A DNA stretch of 49,640 nucleotides, taken from the IMG/VR virus record IMGVR_UViG_2718218452_000011; one strand, 5' to 3'. Origin of the DNA: a virus. Lineage: Duplodnaviria; Heunggongvirae; Uroviricota; Caudoviricetes. The translations under genes and the position numbers were made by a program. Position 1 is the first letter of the stretch; the number at the start of each line of letters is the position of its first letter. A model generated the notes under the pieces. The model was given only the letters and a program-made list of their open reading frames with translations, had not been told where the DNA came from and made no database searches. Positions 7,494 through 43,998 of the stretch are shown here, one piece after another.

Positions 7494-7727
7494 ATGCCTA
7501 TTCAATCTCAACACAAAAATATTGATTATCTTTCCGCCAGATTAGAGGCTACCGCGCTTGTTCTTGAAGAACTTGTTAAACTTCTTACGCCAGAGCAGCG
7601 TGAAAAACTGAATCTGGCAATTGCCGGGCGTTGTCCGGGCGTGAAAAATGCATCTCTCAGGAATAGAAATTCTCCAGCATATCAATTATTACAGTTCATC
7701 AATGATGGCGTCGGCAGCAGCGATTAA
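7494..7727 (+). CDS. Hypothetical protein (77 aa)
   Basis: Internal ATG of track ORF 7416..7727 preceded by TAAGGAA RBS; occupies the position where sieB lies in Rac but is not SieB-like (no membrane helices). Confidence 0.4.
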   Translation: MPIQSQHKNIDYLSARLEATALVLEELVKLLTPEQREKLNLAIAGRCPGVKNASLRNRNSPAYQLLQFINDGVGSSD

Positions 7728-7994
7728 TTTTTCTAATGCCTCTTCGACATGATAATTGTATGGTTGTAGTGACCTGACATCTGCAATGGCATCAGCCAGG
7801 TTTCGTGCCATTACGGCTGGTGCGATTTTTTTTGCTGCTGATACCCGGCTGGCGAGTTCCAGTGCGAGACGAGCCTGCCCCGGAGTCAGCTCTCTTTCTT
7901 TTGCCATTGTTGATGCCTGTACAGACAATTCATATGCCAGACAAAACACAGCATTATTCGTTTCTAGCGGGTCAATACCCTGAGTAAATGTCAT
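7689..7994 (-). CDS. Hypothetical protein (101 aa)
   Basis: Track ORF with strong RBS (AAGGGGAGAG) upstream of the ATG at 7994; 3' end overlaps the convergent 7494..7727 gene by 39 bp. Confidence 0.45.
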   Translation of the reverse strand: MTFTQGIDPLETNNAVFCLAYELSVQASTMAKERELTPGQARLALELASRVSAAKKIAPAVMARNLADAIADVRSLQPYNYHVEEALEKLIAAADAIIDEL

Positions 7995-8243: not shown

Positions 8244-8705
8244 CTACTGGTTACGTTTCTTTAGTGCCAGCATGTTCTCGAAGGCTTCCTCGTAGAGCTT
8301 GTTTAGTCCACGTAGCTGGTTAAGGAGTTTGGCTTTTTCTGACGCAGGTAGAATCTCGAAGAGGTTAAGTAACTCTGCCTGTTCTTCATTGACCAGCCTC
8401 CATCCTTTGCCTGAAAAGCTATCATCATAAGTATCTGATGATCTTACATAATTCATTAAGTCTTTAAGGTCTTCTCGAATGTCCTCTGGTTTTACCTTTA
8501 ACAGAGCCGCAAATTTTAGCGCAGCGTCGGTATTTACCGGTATCTTGCCGTTCAGATACTGGCTAACGGTGCCTTGAGATTCGAATCCTAACAACTCAGC
8601 CGCCAGCTCTTGAGTCAGCTTCAGCTCTTTTTTTCTTGCATTCCATGCGGCTTTTAAATTCTTGCTCGCTTCTGGAGTTGCAATCACTTCGCGTGTTTTT
8701 TTCAT
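8244..8705 (-). CDS. racR: Prophage repressor, XRE-family HTH (RacR-like, 153 aa)
   Basis: N-terminal HTH (..LKLTQELAAELLGFESQGTVSQYLNGK..); divergently arranged with a Cro-like gene across a 100-bp control region. Confidence 0.8.
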   Translation of the reverse strand: MKKTREVIATPEASKNLKAAWNARKKELKLTQELAAELLGFESQGTVSQYLNGKIPVNTDAALKFAALLKVKPEDIREDLKDLMNYVRSSDTYDDSFSGKGWRLVNEEQAELLNLFEILPASEKAKLLNQLRGLNKLYEEAFENMLALKKRNQ

Positions 8706-24768: not shown

Positions 24769-26208
24769 TTGATGGCAGAGATCGAGATTACTGGCGGCCT
24801 CGGTTCAGCACTGATGCATATTCTTGAGGCTGAAGAAATTCAGCCGGGAACCGACATTGGCTATGAATTGTGTAAGCAGCTGTGGCAATTCCATCCTCTG
24901 GGCGGAAAACTTGTCGAAAAACCCATACTGATGGCGATGTGTAAGCCGCGCCAGTATAACGTGGAGACAGACCCTGACGAGAGGGTTGTGAGGCGTTTTC
25001 AGGAGGTATGGGAACGCATGAAGGTCAACGAGAAGATTAAAAATCTGTTTTTTCTGTCTCGTTGCTACGGTGCTGCAGCGATCGGCGTGGGCACCGACAG
25101 CGTTCCATGTCGTGAACCGCTTCCGACGTTCGGACTGACAGAAGATGACGTGTATATCAACGCGTGGGACCCGTTGAACGCTTCCGGTTCGATGGTGACT
25201 GACCAGAACCCCAACAGCCCGTTTTTCCAGGAAGCCAATAAAAAACTGAAGATTGGTGGGAAAGACTGGCATCCGTCACGCACACTGAAAATCTTCAACG
25301 GCACACCGATTTATCTGGAGTTTCAGAGTTCATCGTTCGGATTCACCGGACGTAGTGTGTTTCAGCGCGTTCTTTATTCCCTGAAATCCTATATCAACAC
25401 GATGGAGGCGAATGATCTCGTCAGCCAGAAGGCGGGCGTACTGGTAGCTAAAGTTGTGCAGTACGGTTCGAAACTTGACGGGATCATGGCTGCCGCCACG
25501 GGACGAAAAAGGGAAAACGTCAAAGAGGCAAAAAATAAAGGTGTGCTTAGTATCGGGAAGGATGAGGACGTTACCTCGCTAAATCTACAAAACATCGATG
25601 GTGCGCTAAACGCTGCACGCGACAATATTATTTCCGATATTGCGTCAGGGAGTGACGTTCCGGCGATCCTCATCAAAGAGGAAGCCTTTTCGAATGGTTT
25701 CGGTGAGGGGACCGAAGATTCGAAAGCCATCAGCCAGTATATCGATGGTGTACGCCAGCAGATTGAACCCGTGATGGATTATTTCGAACGCCTGGTGCAG
25801 TACATCGCCTGGAACGAGGAATTTTATCAGTCGCTGAAAAATGATTACCCGGACATCATAACTGATGACTATAAAACCACGTTTTACCAGTGGCGACGTG
25901 AATTTACCGCGACATGGCAGGAGCTGGTGGAGGAGTCGCCGGACAAACGCCGGGAAAGCGACAGTAAAGTGATTCAACAGGCGATAGCACTTTTCTCTGC
26001 CGTGTCGCCACAGGTTGATCCTGAAAACCGTGCCGCCGTCACTGAATGGCTGGCAAGCCTTGTTAATGCCACGCAAACCTATGGCGAAGCTCCACTCATC
26101 ATTGATGTGGACGCGCTGGCGAATTATGAACCACCGAAGCAGGAGACGCCTGATGGCAATTTCCAGCCGGGCGGTGAGGAAGAAGAAACGGATCAGGACG
26201 CTATATGA
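24769..26208 (+). CDS. Portal protein (479 aa), putative
   Basis: Size and position immediately after the terminase large subunit; acidic C-terminus. Confidence 0.6.
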   Translation: MMAEIEITGGLGSALMHILEAEEIQPGTDIGYELCKQLWQFHPLGGKLVEKPILMAMCKPRQYNVETDPDERVVRRFQEVWERMKVNEKIKNLFFLSRCYGAAAIGVGTDSVPCREPLPTFGLTEDDVYINAWDPLNASGSMVTDQNPNSPFFQEANKKLKIGGKDWHPSRTLKIFNGTPIYLEFQSSSFGFTGRSVFQRVLYSLKSYINTMEANDLVSQKAGVLVAKVVQYGSKLDGIMAAATGRKRENVKEAKNKGVLSIGKDEDVTSLNLQNIDGALNAARDNIISDIASGSDVPAILIKEEAFSNGFGEGTEDSKAISQYIDGVRQQIEPVMDYFERLVQYIAWNEEFYQSLKNDYPDIITDDYKTTFYQWRREFTATWQELVEESPDKRRESDSKVIQQAIALFSAVSPQVDPENRAAVTEWLASLVNATQTYGEAPLIIDVDALANYEPPKQETPDGNFQPGGEEEETDQDAI

Positions 26209-40791: not shown

Positions 40792-40829
40792 TACCGGTTC
40801 ATTTCACTTTAAATTCTGACCATAAAACG

Positions 40830-40865
40830 AAAACCCCGACTGTTGGCCCAGTCGGGGTTTTCTGT
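40830..40865 (+). terminator. Rho-independent terminator-like hairpin
   Basis: AAAACCCCGACTG-TTGGCC-CAGTCGGGGTTTTCTGTTTCT. Coordinates +/-1 nt. Confidence 0.5.
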
Positions 40866-40945
40866 TTCTCACCTTGAATACGCAAGGGATGATTACGTAT
40901 GTTTGGAGGTCTTCCGTGATTAATTTTAGCGGAGGAGACTGGATT

Positions 40946-41077
40946 GTGAAAGCCTTAAAATTAGTGGCAAAAAGCAATACCTTACGACGCATGTATTACA
41001 CCGCTGCACTCGTAGCTTTAGCATTTGCCTTTTCACCAGTACTGACAGAGTTAGTTAAAGTGATGGGGGCACGATGA
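40946..41077 (+). CDS. Small membrane protein (43 aa from GTG)
   Basis: GGAGGAG RBS 7 nt upstream of in-frame GTG (codon 25 of track ORF 40874..41077); hydrophobic; ATGA overlap with next gene. Confidence 0.3.
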   Translation: MKALKLVAKSNTLRRMYYTAALVALAFAFSPVLTELVKVMGAR

Positions 41078-41421
41078 GAACATGGGGCCGCGTCACCGAC
41101 GCGAACGGCAACAAAAAATGGGTTGCAGTAGAATCTGACGCCAACGGTGATTTCTCCTACGGCTGGCTGACGACGCTCATTCAGACGTTAAAGCTGGGAT
41201 TGGGGGAGTCGCCGTTTTACGCGAATTACGGTATTCCTGCACAGCAGTGCATCGTGCAGCAGATTTACCCAGACTACTATGTGAACATGGTTCAGCAACA
41301 GTTTGCTGGGTATTTTGCATCACTGGCAATTTCAAAGGTAGATGGAGCAGATAACCCCACCTATAACATCGATGTTGTGTTTTTTAATGGGACCAGTTAC
41401 CGGACGCAGGTGCCGGTATGA
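41074..41421 (+). CDS. Baseplate wedge protein W-like (gp25-like), 115 aa
   Basis: ..LIQTLKLGLGESPFYANYGIP.. resembles the gp25/GPW motif (G.R...P.FG) as recalled; size matches P2 gpW. Confidence 0.5.
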   Translation: MRTWGRVTDANGNKKWVAVESDANGDFSYGWLTTLIQTLKLGLGESPFYANYGIPAQQCIVQQIYPDYYVNMVQQQFAGYFASLAISKVDGADNPTYNIDVVFFNGTSYRTQVPV

Positions 41422-41570
41422 ATCACAGTTTTATGATAAAACTTTTACCTTGGTTTGGAGTGCTGTAGAGAGATATTTTAGGGGGGCGAGTAATTTTCTA
41501 AGCTGGAGCATATTGACATATATTATTTCGGATTTGCAAAATACATATTGTTACCATGGAGGAGACAAGC

Positions 41571-42731
41571 ATGGAAAATTTTGCAAATAAGTTAAAAATA
41601 CACACAGAGCATGTTGCAAAAATGGGGGTGTTTTGTACAACTGAAGAAACGACAAAACAAGCACTCATTATGCCATTACTAGATATTCTTGGTTTTACTC
41701 CGTATGATCCAAGAAAAGTCAAAGCTGAGTATAGTGCTGACTTCCCCGGGGTTAAGGCTAATGAACGGGTTGATTACGCTTTATTTTGTCATGATGTTCC
41801 TGTGATGTTCATTGAGGCGAAATCGTTTTCAGAACAAATTGATAATCACTGCCCACAGCTATCAAGATATTTTAATTCAACACCGGAAGTTACTATATCA
41901 GCCATTACAAATGGTGTTGAATGGCGTTTTTTTACGGATTTGAAACAAAAAAACATAATGGATTCAACGCCGTTTTTAAAAATAAGAATGGATTCTCTAA
42001 CTCACTCCGATATTACACAATTATTTCGTTTTCGTTATGATAAATTCAAACCAGAGGCTTTACGGACACTGGCTGAAGAAAGTGTTTATTTGAATTCATT
42101 TACTAAAACAATCAGTTCTAGTCTTCGTGAAGTTGATCTGGAGTTTGTTCGATATGTTGCTAGTCGTTCAAATATTGAGAGACAACTTAATCAGAGATTT
42201 CTTGAGTTCGTGACTCCATTAGTTAAACAGGCCGTTGAGCGCGCTGTTAGCGCAATGGTGGTTTCCGGGCTATCTACACAACCGGTAGAGCAAACTAAAG
42301 AAAATGATGCAACGGATACACAAGTTAATAACGCCATTGTTGATGAAGAAAACCCCAACATAATAACCACAGCCAAAGAATTGGAGCTATTTGAAAGGGT
42401 AAAACAAATCATACAAACAGAAGATAATATAGAATATAAAGATACTGAGTCATATTTTGGTGTGCTATTGAATGGTAAAACTAATAGATGGCTGTTAAGA
42501 TTTTATGATAAAAAATCTTCATTTATAACTTTACCTATTTCGCTTAGTGAAGTTCAGTTGAATGAAATAAGACGAGCTCGACTTGATACGGATGGTAAAA
42601 GGATACATATAACTAATCCGGAAGATATACTTCGCATATCTGGTTTGATTCTGGATTCATACGAGTATGTTAAAAATGATGATAATTTCCGCCGAGGGTC
42701 CAGAGTGAGCAGTTTAGAAGAGGTTGAATAA
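41571..42731 (+). CDS. HsdR-N/Mrr-like PD-(D/E)XK nuclease-domain protein with uncharacterised 240-aa C-terminal domain; candidate defence gene
   Basis: GGAGGAG RBS 6 nt before ATG 41571; motifs ..ERVDYALF..(16)..VMFIEAKS..Q..Y...TNGVEWRFF fit the type I R-subunit N-terminal nuclease fold; AT-rich, own promoter-like sequence and terminator; inserted between baseplate W-like and J-like genes. Confidence 0.6.
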   Translation: MENFANKLKIHTEHVAKMGVFCTTEETTKQALIMPLLDILGFTPYDPRKVKAEYSADFPGVKANERVDYALFCHDVPVMFIEAKSFSEQIDNHCPQLSRYFNSTPEVTISAITNGVEWRFFTDLKQKNIMDSTPFLKIRMDSLTHSDITQLFRFRYDKFKPEALRTLAEESVYLNSFTKTISSSLREVDLEFVRYVASRSNIERQLNQRFLEFVTPLVKQAVERAVSAMVVSGLSTQPVEQTKENDATDTQVNNAIVDEENPNIITTAKELELFERVKQIIQTEDNIEYKDTESYFGVLLNGKTNRWLLRFYDKKSSFITLPISLSEVQLNEIRRARLDTDGKRIHITNPEDILRISGLILDSYEYVKNDDNFRRGSRVSSLEEVE

Positions 42732-42733
42732 GT

Positions 42734-42759
42734 AAAAAACCCGCGAAAGCGGGTTTTTT
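42734..42759 (+). terminator. Rho-independent terminator
   Basis: AAAAAACCCGC-GAAA-GCGGGTTTTTT three nt after the nuclease stop. Confidence 0.65.
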
Positions 42760-42771
42760 AATGGAGTAAAT

Positions 42772-43998
42772 ATGTCAGAAATACCAATTACTATGACCAG
42801 TGCGGGGGCGCAGCCTACGCCACCCAATGATTTGCTTGCAGATCTTATCATCAGAGTTGCTGAAAAAGTACCTGGATATACAGCCAACCTTCCGGCGGGG
42901 CTTATTACTGACCTTGCCAGCACGGCAGTCGGGGCGCTGGCATTAATAGACCAGGCGCGGGTGGACCTTATTAACTCCGTAAGCCCATACGGCGCAAATA
43001 TTCCGTTATTGATGCAACTCGGAAACATTTATGGAGCACAGAAGGGATTAAGTACAAATACGGCGGTATACGTGGTGTTTGAGGCGTTGCCGGGGTTTGG
43101 TATCCCTAAAGGATTTGTTGTCGGTGACGGCAACTACCAGTATGCAGTTTCCCGCGATACGGTGGTGCCGGAAAGCGGGCAGACTGAGCCAGTCTACTGT
43201 GTGGCCACAACGTCAGGCTCATGGGCTGTACCGGAAGGAACCGTAACGCAGGTCATTACATCGGTACCCAAAGATCAGCCTGTAAAATGCACGAACCTTA
43301 CCGCAGGGATGCCAGGTCAGGAGGCGCAAACGTGGGCATCTTACCGCGCCGAAGTCATGGAGTCCGGCATGTTTGGTGTGCAGGGAACACCGGATTGCTT
43401 TAAAGCGATGCTCAAATCAGTAAGCGGTGTGCGAGAAAACCTGATTTCTTTCCGGCAGTCGTCGCTGGGGAAATGGGTTGCGGTTGTTGGTGGCGGTGAT
43501 CCGTATGATGTGGCTTATGCTATTTACAAATCTGTACCGGATATTTCGAAACTGACCAACGATGTTAGCAATCCATCTGGTGCGGCAGTGGAAAAACGCA
43601 CGGTTTCAATAACCGTTTCGCCAGATGTTTATCAGGTGCCGTTCGTTATCCCGTCATCACAAAACGTCATGGTGCTAATCACCTGGAACACTGTATCTGA
43701 TGATTATGTTGATCCGGCGGGTATTGCTATGGCTGTGCAGCAAAACGTTGCTGATTACATCAATTCTATTGAAGTCGGACACCCGATAAATCTGCTGCGA
43801 ATCCAGGATATTTTTACCAGTTCCGTCAGATTGTTGGTTGATGCGACGTTGATCTCAACAATCAGTGTGAGCATTGGCATTAATGGCCATATTGTTCCTC
43901 CGGCAAAAGACACAAGCCTGGTTTATGGCGATACCTATTCCTATTTTTCGACGGTGGCATCACAGGTTCAAGTTAACAAGTATGCAATATCTGACTGA
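42772..43998 (+). CDS. Baseplate J-like protein (408 aa)
   Basis: Size and position after the W-like gene, followed by I-like and fibre genes (P2/Mu order). Confidence 0.55.
   Translation: MSEIPITMTSAGAQPTPPNDLLADLIIRVAEKVPGYTANLPAGLITDLASTAVGALALIDQARVDLINSVSPYGANIPLLMQLGNIYGAQKGLSTNTAVYVVFEALPGFGIPKGFVVGDGNYQYAVSRDTVVPESGQTEPVYCVATTSGSWAVPEGTVTQVITSVPKDQPVKCTNLTAGMPGQEAQTWASYRAEVMESGMFGVQGTPDCFKAMLKSVSGVRENLISFRQSSLGKWVAVVGGGDPYDVAYAIYKSVPDISKLTNDVSNPSGAAVEKRTVSITVSPDVYQVPFVIPSSQNVMVLITWNTVSDDYVDPAGIAMAVQQNVADYINSIEVGHPINLLRIQDIFTSSVRLLVDATLISTISVSIGINGHIVPPAKDTSLVYGDTYSYFSTVASQVQVNKYAISD

What the first reader, a model, noticed from the sequence alone, without database searches (positions are those of the whole stretch)
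41422..42771. AT-rich single-gene insertion in the baseplate operon encoding an HsdR-N/Mrr-like PD-(D/E)XK nuclease with an unknown C-terminal domain
Between the W-like (ends 41421) and J-like (starts 42772) baseplate genes, which are normally adjacent, sits a 1.35-kb AT-rich insert. It has a promoter-like sequence (TTGACA at about 41513), a strong GGAGGAG RBS, one 386-aa ORF and a tight rho-independent terminator (42734..42759). The N-terminal 150 residues carry the motif set D-Y-A-L-F ... M-F-I-E-A-K ... Q..Y ... TNGVEW typical of type I restriction R-subunit N-terminal / Mrr-like nucleases. The remaining 240 residues match nothing I recognise and could be a sensing or regulatory domain. Autonomous nuclease genes inserted in prophage structural operons are a recurring signature of anti-phage defence genes, so this is the best candidate in the window for an undescribed single-protein defence system.
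Basis: partly seen in the sequence, partly recalled or inferred. Interest (0 to 1): 0.8.

Follow-up and report, generated by a model that had tools for sequence, protein, structure and literature searches.

The report
Stand-alone nuclease gene in prophage tail operon
A foreign, AT-rich single gene wedged between two baseplate genes of an E. coli Rac-type prophage encodes a small stand-alone DNA-cutting enzyme from a very large, experimentally untested family that usually sits right behind prophage repressors, so it is a credible but unproven anti-phage defence gene rather than a new kind of system.

Summary
A 1,332-bp cassette (41432-42763, GC 0.357, the most AT-rich stretch of the window) sits between the W-position gene and baseplate J. 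It holds one 386-aa ORF, a promoter-like site, a strong RBS and a tight terminator. Related prophages carry unrelated cargo in the same slot, so it is a moron hotspot.

The family is large (3,369 clusters at 50% identity; at least 575 IMG/VR contigs; phrog_4225). It typically lies directly downstream of the prophage repressor on the same strand, which implies expression in lysogens.

Defence is plausible but untested. The family is absent from PADLOC 2.0. Databases already label it "type I" or "predicted type IV" restriction endonuclease. Identity with DefenseFinder's FS_HsdR_like could not be tested.

Verdict: a real feature and a good candidate, of moderate novelty.

The parts
41432..42763 (+). 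Cargo cassette (moron) inserted in the variable slot between the W-position gene and baseplate J
   Evidence: Homology to related prophages (E. coli W, JNEC-KY178, ETEC1703, phage vB_Apl-pPE4) stops at about 41431-41435 and resumes at about 42764. GC is 0.357, the lowest stretch of this length in the window.
41513..41542 (+). Sigma-70 promoter-like site (TTGACA, 18 nt, CAAAAT)
   Evidence: 10 of 12 matches. This is a consensus match only and has not been shown to be functional.
41558..41564 (+). Ribosome-binding site GGAGGAG, 6 nt before the ATG
   Evidence: Sequence read directly.
41571..42731 (+). CDS of 386 aa (stop codon included). Identical to RefSeq WP_000426902.1 and a member of phrog_4225.
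   Evidence: The phrog_4225 match is full length with E = 4.5e-149.
41571..41975 (+). Residues 1-135: HsdR-N-type PD-(D/E)XK nuclease core (E25, K29, E53, D68, E82-x-K84, Q96-xxx-Y100, G115)
41976..42275 (+). Residues 136-235: helical extension packed on the nuclease core. It has no Pfam family.
   Evidence: AF2 model me1e353c61ba3, pLDDT 85-95, helices 145-152, 161-186, 190-199 and 208-235. No Pfam hit in this protein or in distant members.
42276..42356 (+). Residues 236-262: disordered linker, hypervariable in sequence and length
   Evidence: pLDDT below 50 for residues 236-252. This is the most variable block in the alignments, with 16-18% top-residue frequency and gaps.
42357..42695 (+). 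Residues 263-375: C-terminal alpha/beta domain with a YdhG/DUF1801-like ('double-wing', YjbR/MotA-CTD-like) fold. Conserved residues are T266, T267, E270, D291, Y295 and R310.
42733..42760 (+). Rho-independent terminator hairpin (12-bp stem, GAAA loop, T-run), immediately before the RBS of J
   Evidence: -17.4 kcal/mol, z = -4.5; perfect inverted repeat I2.
41074..41421 (+). Left flank: conserved 115-aa gene in the W position (phrog_7986, function unknown)
   Evidence: It is 94-95% identical at nucleotide level in related prophages.
42772..43998 (+). Right flank: baseplate J-like gene
   Evidence: Pfam Baseplate_J E = 7e-8 and phrog_6 baseplate wedge E = 1e-37.

Best explanation
The insert is a moron: a horizontally acquired, self-contained single-gene cassette sitting in a hypervariable cargo slot of the tail/baseplate operon of a Rac-family E. 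coli prophage.

Its product is a two-module enzyme. An HsdR-N-type PD-(D/E)XK nuclease with a helical extension (residues 1-235) is joined through a flexible 25-residue tether to a C-terminal YdhG/DUF1801-like 'double-wing' domain (residues 263-375).

Shown here:
- the cassette boundaries, its composition and its terminator;
- the nuclease fold and an active site that is essentially invariant across the family;
- the C-terminal fold;
- the size of the family, and its habitual position directly downstream of prophage repressors on the same strand.

Inferred:
- The gene is expressed in the lysogen. Here that would be from its own promoter, with the terminator shielding J. Elsewhere it would be co-transcribed with the repressor.
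- It acts as a partner-less restriction-like nuclease against incoming foreign DNA (superinfecting phages).
- The C-terminal domain acts as the targeting or sensing module that keeps host and prophage DNA safe, because no methyltransferase or antitoxin accompanies it. That points to a type IV-like (modification- or structure-dependent) or trigger-gated nuclease.
- The tethered nuclease head cuts near the bound site, as in type IIS/IIG enzymes.
- During lytic growth, Q-type antitermination would read through the terminator so that J is still made.
For: Cassette:
- Boundaries, alternative cargo in the same slot, AT-richness and the terminator are documented.

Nuclease:
- Pfam HSDR_N and HSDR_N_2 both score above threshold.
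- E25, D68, K84, Y100 and G115 are invariant in all 133 sequences of A4. K29, E53, E82 and Q96 are at least 90% conserved there and invariant in the 76-sequence A5.

C-terminal domain:

Lysogen expression and accessory role:
- The homologue lies directly after the repressor, on the same strand, in Citrobacter, Klebsiella phage KpF5, E. coli PCN061 and STEC384, Enterobacter, a Salmonella Mu-like prophage, a Xenorhabdus remnant and S. pneumoniae phage IPP25.
- In 68 IMG/VR loci the nearest upstream ORF is on the same strand in 60. It is an S24 CI-like protein in 20 and RacR in 11.
- This place corresponds to sieB in K-12 Rac and rexAB in lambda (established knowledge).
- The closest relatives (85-87% aa) sit in the Q-to-lysis/stx moron site on the opposite strand.

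No partner:
- No methyltransferase is annotated in this prophage.
- Solitary chromosomal copies occur in Gilliamella and Bacteroidetes.

Patchy distribution:
- Only 33 of 5,426 complete E. coli genomes carry a homologue.
Against: - No experiment on any family member was found in the papers searched.
- PADLOC 2.0 has no model, so there is no precedent-based support.
- The promoter is only a consensus match.
- The function of the C-terminal domain is inferred from fold similarity at 7-14% identity to proteins that are mostly uncharacterised. YdhG and frataxin-like proteins are not known DNA binders.
- Some homologues have a DNA methyltransferase nearby, for example convergent in the Salmonella Mu-like prophage. 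A restriction-modification-like relationship therefore cannot be excluded everywhere.
- Solitary chromosomal copies next to housekeeping genes could also fit a housekeeping DNA-processing role.
- The prophage in this window carries an IS3 in a head gene, so selection on the phage side cannot be assumed here.
Confidence: 0.6

Rival explanations
1. It is a defence gene, but an already described one: the family is the same as the PICI-borne 'HsdR-like' single-gene system of Fillol-Salom et al. 2022 (DefenseFinder FS_HsdR_like). The function would then be as in the main explanation, with little novelty.
For: The name and single-gene nature are recalled from memory and were not tested. Family members carry the NCBI label 'type I restriction endonuclease / HsdR N-terminal domain', which would invite the name 'HsdR-like'. 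A Bacillus homologue lies at the edge of a PICI-like satellite, in the order repressor, integrase, this gene, with a DUF927 primase nearby.
Against: None of the 33 E. coli genomes with a homologue has it in a PICI in the contexts inspected. 'HsdR-like' might equally denote a helicase-containing protein. The paper and the HMM were not available.
Confidence: 0.15
2. It serves the prophage's own biology rather than defence. Examples are a maintenance or addiction toxin, or a nuclease acting in recombination, excision or processing of phage DNA, expressed as part of the lysogeny module.
For: It is tightly linked to repressor and integrase genes in many phages. A repressor-plus-gene pair is retained in a Xenorhabdus prophage remnant. 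Structural neighbours include Cas4, Hjc and RecB-type nucleases.
Against: The gene also occurs far from lysogeny modules. It is found in this baseplate slot, in the Q-to-lysis moron site on the opposite strand, and solitary in chromosomes. It is dispensable: sister prophages lack it. No antitoxin-like partner is present.
Confidence: 0.13
3. It is a free-standing homing endonuclease, or another selfish nuclease, that inserted itself between two conserved structural genes as the seg and mob genes of T-even phages do.
For: It is an AT-rich, autonomous nuclease gene between conserved late genes, with its own promoter-like site and terminator. In 3 of 68 viral loci the upstream neighbour is also a tail or baseplate gene.
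Against: Nucleotide homology between copies in different contexts is confined to the ORF. The slot holds unrelated cargo in relatives, and no empty target site was seen. Most copies sit behind repressors, not in conserved genes. The conserved non-nuclease domain and the solitary chromosomal copies do not fit homing either.
Confidence: 0.06
4. It is an inert remnant or decoy: a truncated HsdR or type IIG fragment with no enzymatic role, or an anti-restriction decoy.
For: It contains only the N-terminal domain of much larger restriction enzymes. Weak hits fall on the N-termini of type I and type IIG proteins.
Against: It has a full-length conserved architecture of about 350-400 aa in 3,369 clusters, with invariant catalytic residues and a conserved C-terminal domain. 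That indicates purifying selection on an active enzyme.
Confidence: 0.03

Closest known systems
N-terminal endonuclease domain of type I HsdR subunits (EcoR124I HsdR, PDB 2w00; HsdR fragment 3h1t; Pfam HSDR_N PF04313/PF13588)
   Different: There is no SF2 helicase/translocase domain and no HsdM/HsdS partner, and the protein is 386 aa rather than about 1,000 aa. NCBIfam PRK11448 scores 19 bits against a cut-off of 729. The RefSeq name 'type I restriction endonuclease' is therefore misleading.
Type IIG/IIL restriction-modification enzymes (BpuSI 3s1s, DrdV 7lo5, MmeI class)
   Different: There is no methyltransferase and no target-recognition domain of that type. The recognition module is replaced by a small YdhG/DUF1801-like domain behind a disordered linker.
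Type IV (modification-dependent) restriction enzymes such as Mrr
   Same: A single polypeptide combining a PD-(D/E)XK nuclease with a separate small binding domain and no cognate methyltransferase. IMG labels a family member 'predicted type IV restriction endonuclease'.
   Different: The domain order is reversed, there is no Mrr_cat or Mrr_N hit, and modification dependence is untested.
Lysogen-expressed exclusion genes next to prophage repressors (lambda rexAB, Rac sieB)
   Same: Same genomic logic: an accessory gene directly downstream of the repressor, transcribed in the lysogen. This holds for most family members.
   Different: The proteins are unrelated (membrane or ion-channel-type rather than a soluble nuclease). 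In this window the gene is not at the repressor but in the baseplate operon.
Single-protein nuclease defence systems with a regulatory domain (e.g. Shedu SduA)
   Same: This is a working analogy only: one PD-(D/E)XK nuclease whose non-catalytic domain decides when or where it cuts.
   Different: A different nuclease subfamily (DUF4263 against HSDR_N) and a different domain order. There is no PADLOC hit.

Membership tests
HSDR_N-type PD-(D/E)XK nuclease domain (Pfam PF04313 / PF13588) | Profile match above the curated gathering score | tested here: met
   PF04313 scores 53 bits (cut-off 25.1) and PF13588 scores 37.8 bits (cut-off 25).
HSDR_N-type PD-(D/E)XK nuclease domain (Pfam PF04313 / PF13588) | Catalytic D...(D/E)xK residues, plus QxxxY, present and conserved | tested here: met
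   D68, E82-A-K84 and Q96-xxx-Y100 are present. D68, K84 and Y100 are invariant in A4 (133 sequences), where E82 and Q96 are at least 90% conserved. All five are invariant in A5 (76 sequences).
HSDR_N-type PD-(D/E)XK nuclease domain (Pfam PF04313 / PF13588) | Restriction-endonuclease-like alpha/beta fold | tested here: met
Type I restriction enzyme R subunit (the name RefSeq gives) | SF2 helicase/translocase domains following the nuclease domain | tested here: not met
   The protein is 386 aa and has no ResIII, DEAD or helicase hit. NCBIfam PRK11448 scores 19 bits against a cut-off of 729.
Type I restriction enzyme R subunit (the name RefSeq gives) | hsdM and hsdS genes in the locus | tested here: not met
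   No methyltransferase or specificity gene is annotated anywhere in the prophage.
Mrr-like type IV enzymes | Mrr_cat nuclease domain and Mrr_N winged helix | tested here: not met
   No such Pfam hit at E <= 1.
Type IV (modification-dependent) restriction endonuclease | Cleaves only modified DNA and has no cognate methyltransferase | not testable with these tools
   The absence of a partner was observed. Dependence on modification needs biochemistry. The label exists only as an IMG annotation.
PHROG phrog_4225 ('endonuclease') | Full-length profile match | tested here: met
   E = 4.5e-149, residues 1-370 against profile positions 1-357 of 357.
Known or candidate defence systems in PADLOC-DB 2.0.0 | Match to any of 5,027 models | tested here: not met
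   No hit at E <= 10 for this protein. Distant members show only weak hits confined to the nuclease domain.
DefenseFinder FS_HsdR_like (Fillol-Salom 2022) | Match to the system's HMM, or identity with the published PICI protein | not testable with these tools
   The paper is not held and the model is not available. The resemblance is a recollection of the name only.
Moron (autonomous accessory gene in a prophage late operon) | Present or absent between closely related phages, with deviant base composition | tested here: met
   25 genomes carry this insert while relatives carry other cargo in the same slot. GC is 0.357 against 0.482.
Moron (autonomous accessory gene in a prophage late operon) | Own terminator | tested here: met
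   Hairpin at 42733-42760, -17.4 kcal/mol, z = -4.5.
Moron (autonomous accessory gene in a prophage late operon) | Own promoter active in the lysogen | tested here: inconclusive
   A 10/12 consensus site at 41513-41542. There are no expression data.
Free-standing homing endonuclease | Insertion next to its own cleavage site, with empty sites in relatives and flanks that move with the gene | tested here: not met
   No empty site was found and the slot holds unrelated cargo. Homology between contexts is limited to the ORF.
YdhG/DUF1801-like ('double-wing', YjbR/MotA-CTD-like) fold for the C-terminal domain | Structural superposition on solved members | tested here: met
YdhG/DUF1801-like ('double-wing', YjbR/MotA-CTD-like) fold for the C-terminal domain | Sequence-profile membership (Pfam DUF1801 or DUF419) | tested here: not met
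   No Pfam hit in this protein or in ten distant members.

The most novel reading that the evidence does not exclude
The family is a previously unvalidated, pan-bacterial single-protein anti-phage system that prophages carry mainly behind their repressor. An HsdR-type nuclease head would be tethered to a YdhG/DUF1801-like double-wing domain that recognises a feature of invading DNA (a modification, an end or a structure) or a phage protein. This would give that widespread domain of unknown function its first role in immunity.
Probability: 0.35. Interest if true: 0.6.

Novelty: new member of a known kind. Interest (0 to 1): 0.45.

Why it matters
If the defence role holds, one small gene would explain a very common accessory gene of temperate phages across Proteobacteria, Firmicutes, Bacteroidetes, Fusobacteria and Actinobacteria. 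The scale is at least 575 IMG/VR contigs and 3,369 clusters at 50% identity.

It would correct a widespread misannotation ('type I restriction endonuclease').

It would also assign a function to a YdhG/DUF1801-like domain.

Finally, it documents a baseplate-operon slot in Rac-family prophages that exchanges cargo (this nuclease, Ant antirepressors, an LprI-labelled protein). That slot could be mined for further accessory genes.

If the defence role does not hold, the finding is an ordinary moron carrying an annotated nuclease.

Tried and rejected
Sequence-level searches of the PDB
- Searches with the single protein and with two profiles (37 and 133 sequences) returned only chance hits such as haemagglutinin, an ankyrin protein and Pr125Pol.

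First structure model
- The first AF2 model, built from 37 close homologues, was mediocre (pLDDT 67.6). Its Foldseek E-values were all above 0.01.
- It was replaced by a model from 76 diverse sequences (pLDDT 88.6).

Pfam on the middle and C-terminal parts
- No Pfam family was found for these parts, even in distant or longer members. The TerD and DnaJ extras look like fusions or gene-calling artefacts.

Literature (all 10 searches used)
- No experimental paper on the family was found.
- The Campylobacter paper only lists an HsdR-N protein as a strain difference.
- The DefensePredictor text and supplements and the 2026 domain-centric NAR paper do not mention the family's accessions.
- The Fillol-Salom 2022 paper could not be opened.

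Transposition signature
- No terminal inverted repeats flank the cassette.
- The 12-nt direct repeat GTTTTTTAATGG does not coincide with the left boundary.

Other rejected readings
- A classical restriction-modification pair was rejected for this locus because no methyltransferase is annotated in the prophage.
- A structural tail protein was rejected because of the alternative cargo in the slot and the non-structural contexts of homologues.

Failed call
- A Pfam scan of alignment A4 failed on the size limit.
Full report
**1. What is in the sequence**

The window is an entire Rac-family prophage of E. coli, 100% identical to strains C7 and C3. It is integrated next to ttcA, with intR at the left end and uspF/ompN to the right.

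The ORF runs from 41571 to 42731 on the + strand and encodes 386 aa. It lies between a conserved 115-aa gene that ends at 41421 and the baseplate J gene that starts at 42772. GGAGGAG lies 6 nt before the ATG. RefSeq annotates the same CDS as WP_000426902.1, 'type I restriction endonuclease'.

The hairpin at 42733-42760 has a 12-bp stem and a T-run, folds at -17.4 kcal/mol with z = -4.5, and no shuffle out of 200 does as well. The simple scanner missed it only because the T-run is consumed by the stem.

The promoter is a 10/12 consensus match: TTGACA at 41513, an 18-nt spacer, then CAAAAT. In an AT-rich region this is weak evidence on its own.

The composition is clearly foreign. GC is 0.357 against a window mean of 0.482 (sd 0.035), making this the most AT-rich stretch of its length in 49.6 kb. 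GC3 is 0.26 against 0.49-0.59 in the neighbouring genes.

**2. Boundaries and nature of the insertion**

Related prophages were aligned to the window: E. coli W, JNEC-KY178, ETEC1703 and the phage record vB_Apl-pPE4. Homology breaks at about 41432-41435 and resumes at about 42764, 8 nt before the J start codon.

The same slot holds different cargo in those relatives:
- an AntA/AntB antirepressor plus a 179-aa hypothetical protein on the opposite strand;
- in ETEC1703, an Ant remnant plus a 356-aa protein labelled LprI-family that ends with its own terminator in front of the same GGAG-ATG of J.

I found no relative with an empty slot. 'Normally adjacent' therefore does not hold for this phage group. 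The slot is a cargo-exchange hotspot.

Twenty-five of 5,426 complete E. coli genomes carry this insert here at 98.6-100% identity.

No terminal inverted repeats or boundary-matching direct repeats were found.

The cassette has its own terminator, a promoter-like site and deviant composition, and its presence varies between relatives. This is the classical moron pattern. A Q-like antiterminator gene is present in the prophage. Read-through of the cassette terminator during late transcription is therefore plausible, but this is an inference.

**3. The protein**

Pfam places residues 25-128 in HSDR_N and HSDR_N_2, both above gathering thresholds. There is no Mrr_cat hit and no helicase hit. NCBIfam's type I endonuclease model scores 19 bits against a cut-off of 729. 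The protein is therefore neither Mrr-like nor a type I R subunit, whatever its database name says.

PHROGs gives a full-length match to phrog_4225 'endonuclease' (E = 4.5e-149).

A first AlphaFold model from 37 close homologues was mediocre (pLDDT 67.6). A second model from 76 diverse sequences reached pLDDT 88.6, with 273 residues at or above 90. It shows two rigid modules, residues 1-235 and 262-375, separated by a disordered segment. That segment is also the hypervariable part of the alignment.

So the refuter 'no PD-(D/E)XK fold' fails. The 'unknown 240 residues' become a helical extension, a flexible tether and a double-wing-type alpha/beta domain. Neither the helical part nor the C-terminal domain is covered by any Pfam family, even in distant members. 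No solved structure is detectable by sequence.

**4. Conservation**

The alignments hold 76-133 relatives, and most of those drawn from the 50%-identity representative library are only 25-40% identical to the query.

The nuclease-core residues E25, K29, E53, D68, E82, K84, Q96, Y100, G115 and D123 are invariant or nearly so (at least 90%). The C-terminal residues T266, T267, E270, D291, Y295 and R310 are also strongly conserved.

This pattern indicates selection on an active enzyme and on the C-terminal domain. It argues against a decayed fragment.

**5. Size and spread of the family**

- The 5.8-billion-protein search found 1,356 relatives. Those listed are nearly all about 383 aa and come from Enterobacterales.
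- The exhaustive representative search found 3,369 clusters at E <= 1e-3 and 293 at E <= 1e-30, mostly 350-400 aa.
- tblastn finds it in temperate phages of Klebsiella, Clostridium, Enterococcus, Lacticaseibacillus, Streptococcus, Porphyromonas, Fusobacterium, Corynebacterium and Pseudomonas.
- At least 575 IMG/VR contigs encode a relative.
- The exact protein has been seen on at least 1,000 public contigs.
- From memory, that IMG name belongs to COG4748, which one paper lists among restriction endonucleases. I could not test COG membership.

**6. Genomic context, the most informative new evidence**

In lambdoid, Rac-like, Mu-like and Gram-positive prophages the gene lies immediately downstream of the prophage repressor on the same strand, with gaps of 9-250 nt. 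Examples:
- Citrobacter;
- Klebsiella phage KpF5;
- S. pneumoniae phage IPP25, in the order repressor, hypothetical, gene, integrase;
- E. coli PCN061 and STEC384;
- a Salmonella Mu-like prophage;
- a Xenorhabdus remnant that keeps just the CI-like gene and this gene;
- further enterobacterial prophages.

In 68 IMG/VR loci not identical to the window, the nearest upstream ORF is on the same strand in 60. It is an S24-peptidase CI-like protein in 20 and RacR itself in 11. More of them are HTH-only proteins.

That position is where Rac K-12 carries sieB and lambda carries rexAB (established knowledge). It implies transcription in the lysogen.

Other contexts:
- The closest relatives of the window protein (85-87% aa) sit in the other classical moron site, between Q and the lysis/stx genes on the opposite strand.
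- A few loci have tail or baseplate neighbours, as here.
- A Bacillus copy lies at the edge of a PICI-like satellite.
- Solitary chromosomal copies exist in Gilliamella and a Bacteroidetes lineage.

Nucleotide similarity between contexts is confined to the ORF. Only 33 of 5,426 complete E. coli genomes have any homologue.

Patchy distribution, mobility between accessory slots and lysogen-type placement are what is expected of a prophage-borne defence or exclusion gene. They do not prove one.

**7. Mechanism**

Shown: an intact HsdR-type nuclease head; a flexible tether; a conserved small alpha/beta domain whose structural relatives include DNA-binding double-wing proteins; and no methyltransferase, antitoxin or other partner in this prophage or at solitary loci.

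Inferred:
- The protein is a partner-less restriction-like nuclease.
- Its C-terminal domain supplies discrimination, through modified DNA, a DNA structure or end, or a phage-derived trigger.
- The tethered head then cuts nearby, by analogy with type IIS/IIG enzymes.

Dam-type m6A dependence is unlikely. E. coli is Dam+, and several carrier prophages encode Dam-like methylases.

I put about 0.9 on 'active nuclease moron', about 0.6 on 'acts in defence or exclusion in the lysogen', and about 0.25 on the specific type IV-like reading.

**8. Rivals**

- Homing endonuclease: disfavoured by the context data and by ORF-limited homology.
- A function within the phage's own lysogeny biology: this remains possible because of the tight linkage to repressors and integrases. 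It is weakened by copies in unrelated slots and by the gene's dispensability in sister prophages.
- Inert remnant or decoy: contradicted by the conservation.
- Structural tail protein: excluded.
- On novelty, the family may be identical to DefenseFinder's FS_HsdR_like. I remember only the name, and neither the paper nor the model was accessible.

**9. Known versus new**

The nuclease domain is a bona fide HSDR_N member. The protein is not a member of the type I, Mrr or type IIG families, because defining features were tested and not met. It matches no PADLOC 2.0 model.

It works most like a type IV or type IIS-style tethered nuclease, and genomically like rex/sie-type lysogen-expressed exclusion genes.

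The family is already catalogued and computationally labelled as a restriction endonuclease, and single-gene PD-(D/E)XK defence proteins are a well-populated class. For example, 14 were newly identified in E. coli by DefensePredictor (PMC13092281). I therefore rate it a new member of a known kind.

The unvalidated status of the family, its repressor linkage and the YdhG-like domain are the parts worth an experiment.

**10. Verdict**

Interest is 0.45.

Noticed in passing
window 41532-41542 and 41578-41588: A perfect 11-nt inverted repeat (ATTTGCAAAAT / ATTTTGCAAAT) brackets the RBS and start codon of the nuclease gene. As RNA it forms a hairpin that encloses both (-15 kcal/mol, z = -2.55, 4 of 200 shuffles as good). 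The 5' arm overlaps the predicted -10 hexamer. Transcripts from the cassette promoter would therefore lack that arm, while read-through late transcripts would carry it. This could be a way to silence translation during lytic growth, or it could be an operator.
   Followed up: partly
window 41379-41390 and 42753-42764: A 12-nt direct repeat, GTTTTTTAATGG, has one copy inside the 3' end of the W-position gene and the other at the right edge of the cassette (terminator T-run plus AATGG). It does not match the left boundary, so it may be chance or a trace of illegitimate recombination.
   Followed up: no
window 40829-40862 and 40874-41077: A very strong 14-bp-stem bidirectional terminator-like hairpin sits inside the baseplate operon, between the V-like gene and the W-position gene. 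It is followed by a second variable region (homology to relatives is lost at about 40887-41060). That region holds an unannotated 67-aa TTG-start ORF with a hydrophobic C-terminus and no Pfam hit.
   Followed up: partly
window about 28043-29256: An IS3-family element interrupts a head-module gene (DUF2213 / NUDIX-labelled fragments), so the prophage in this strain is probably defective.
   Followed up: no
window 24772-26208: RefSeq labels this gene 'anti-CBASS protein Acb1 family'. Pfam identifies it as the portal protein (Phage_portal_3, E = 1.6e-12), and it lies in the portal position after the terminase. The label looks misleading.
   Followed up: yes
L006 4930-6000 (E. coli ETEC1703, same W/J slot): Here the slot carries a 356-aa protein annotated 'lysozyme inhibitor LprI family'. 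It has no Pfam or PADLOC hit and has its own terminator placed exactly as in the nuclease cassette. It is another uncharacterised moron in the same hotspot.
   Followed up: partly
L021 7001-9000 (Salmonella Mu-like prophage): The family gene is convergent with, and 62 nt from, a Dam-like MethyltransfD12 gene. DNA methyltransferases also lie within a few kb in several other carrier prophages (L003, L015, L019, L020, L028, L029). This may reflect only how common orphan methylases are in lambdoid phages, but a functional link was not excluded.
   Followed up: no
L024 6290-8152 (Xenorhabdus budapestensis chromosome): A CI-like (HTH_3 + Peptidase_S24) gene and the family gene, 9 nt apart, survive as an isolated pair beside an IS110 element and housekeeping genes. 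This suggests the pair may be retained as a unit after prophage decay.
   Followed up: no
window 7689-7994 (minus strand), downstream of the prophage repressor at 8244-8705: In this prophage, the repressor-adjacent slot where the nuclease family usually sits is occupied by a 100-aa hypothetical protein with no Pfam hit.
   Followed up: partly
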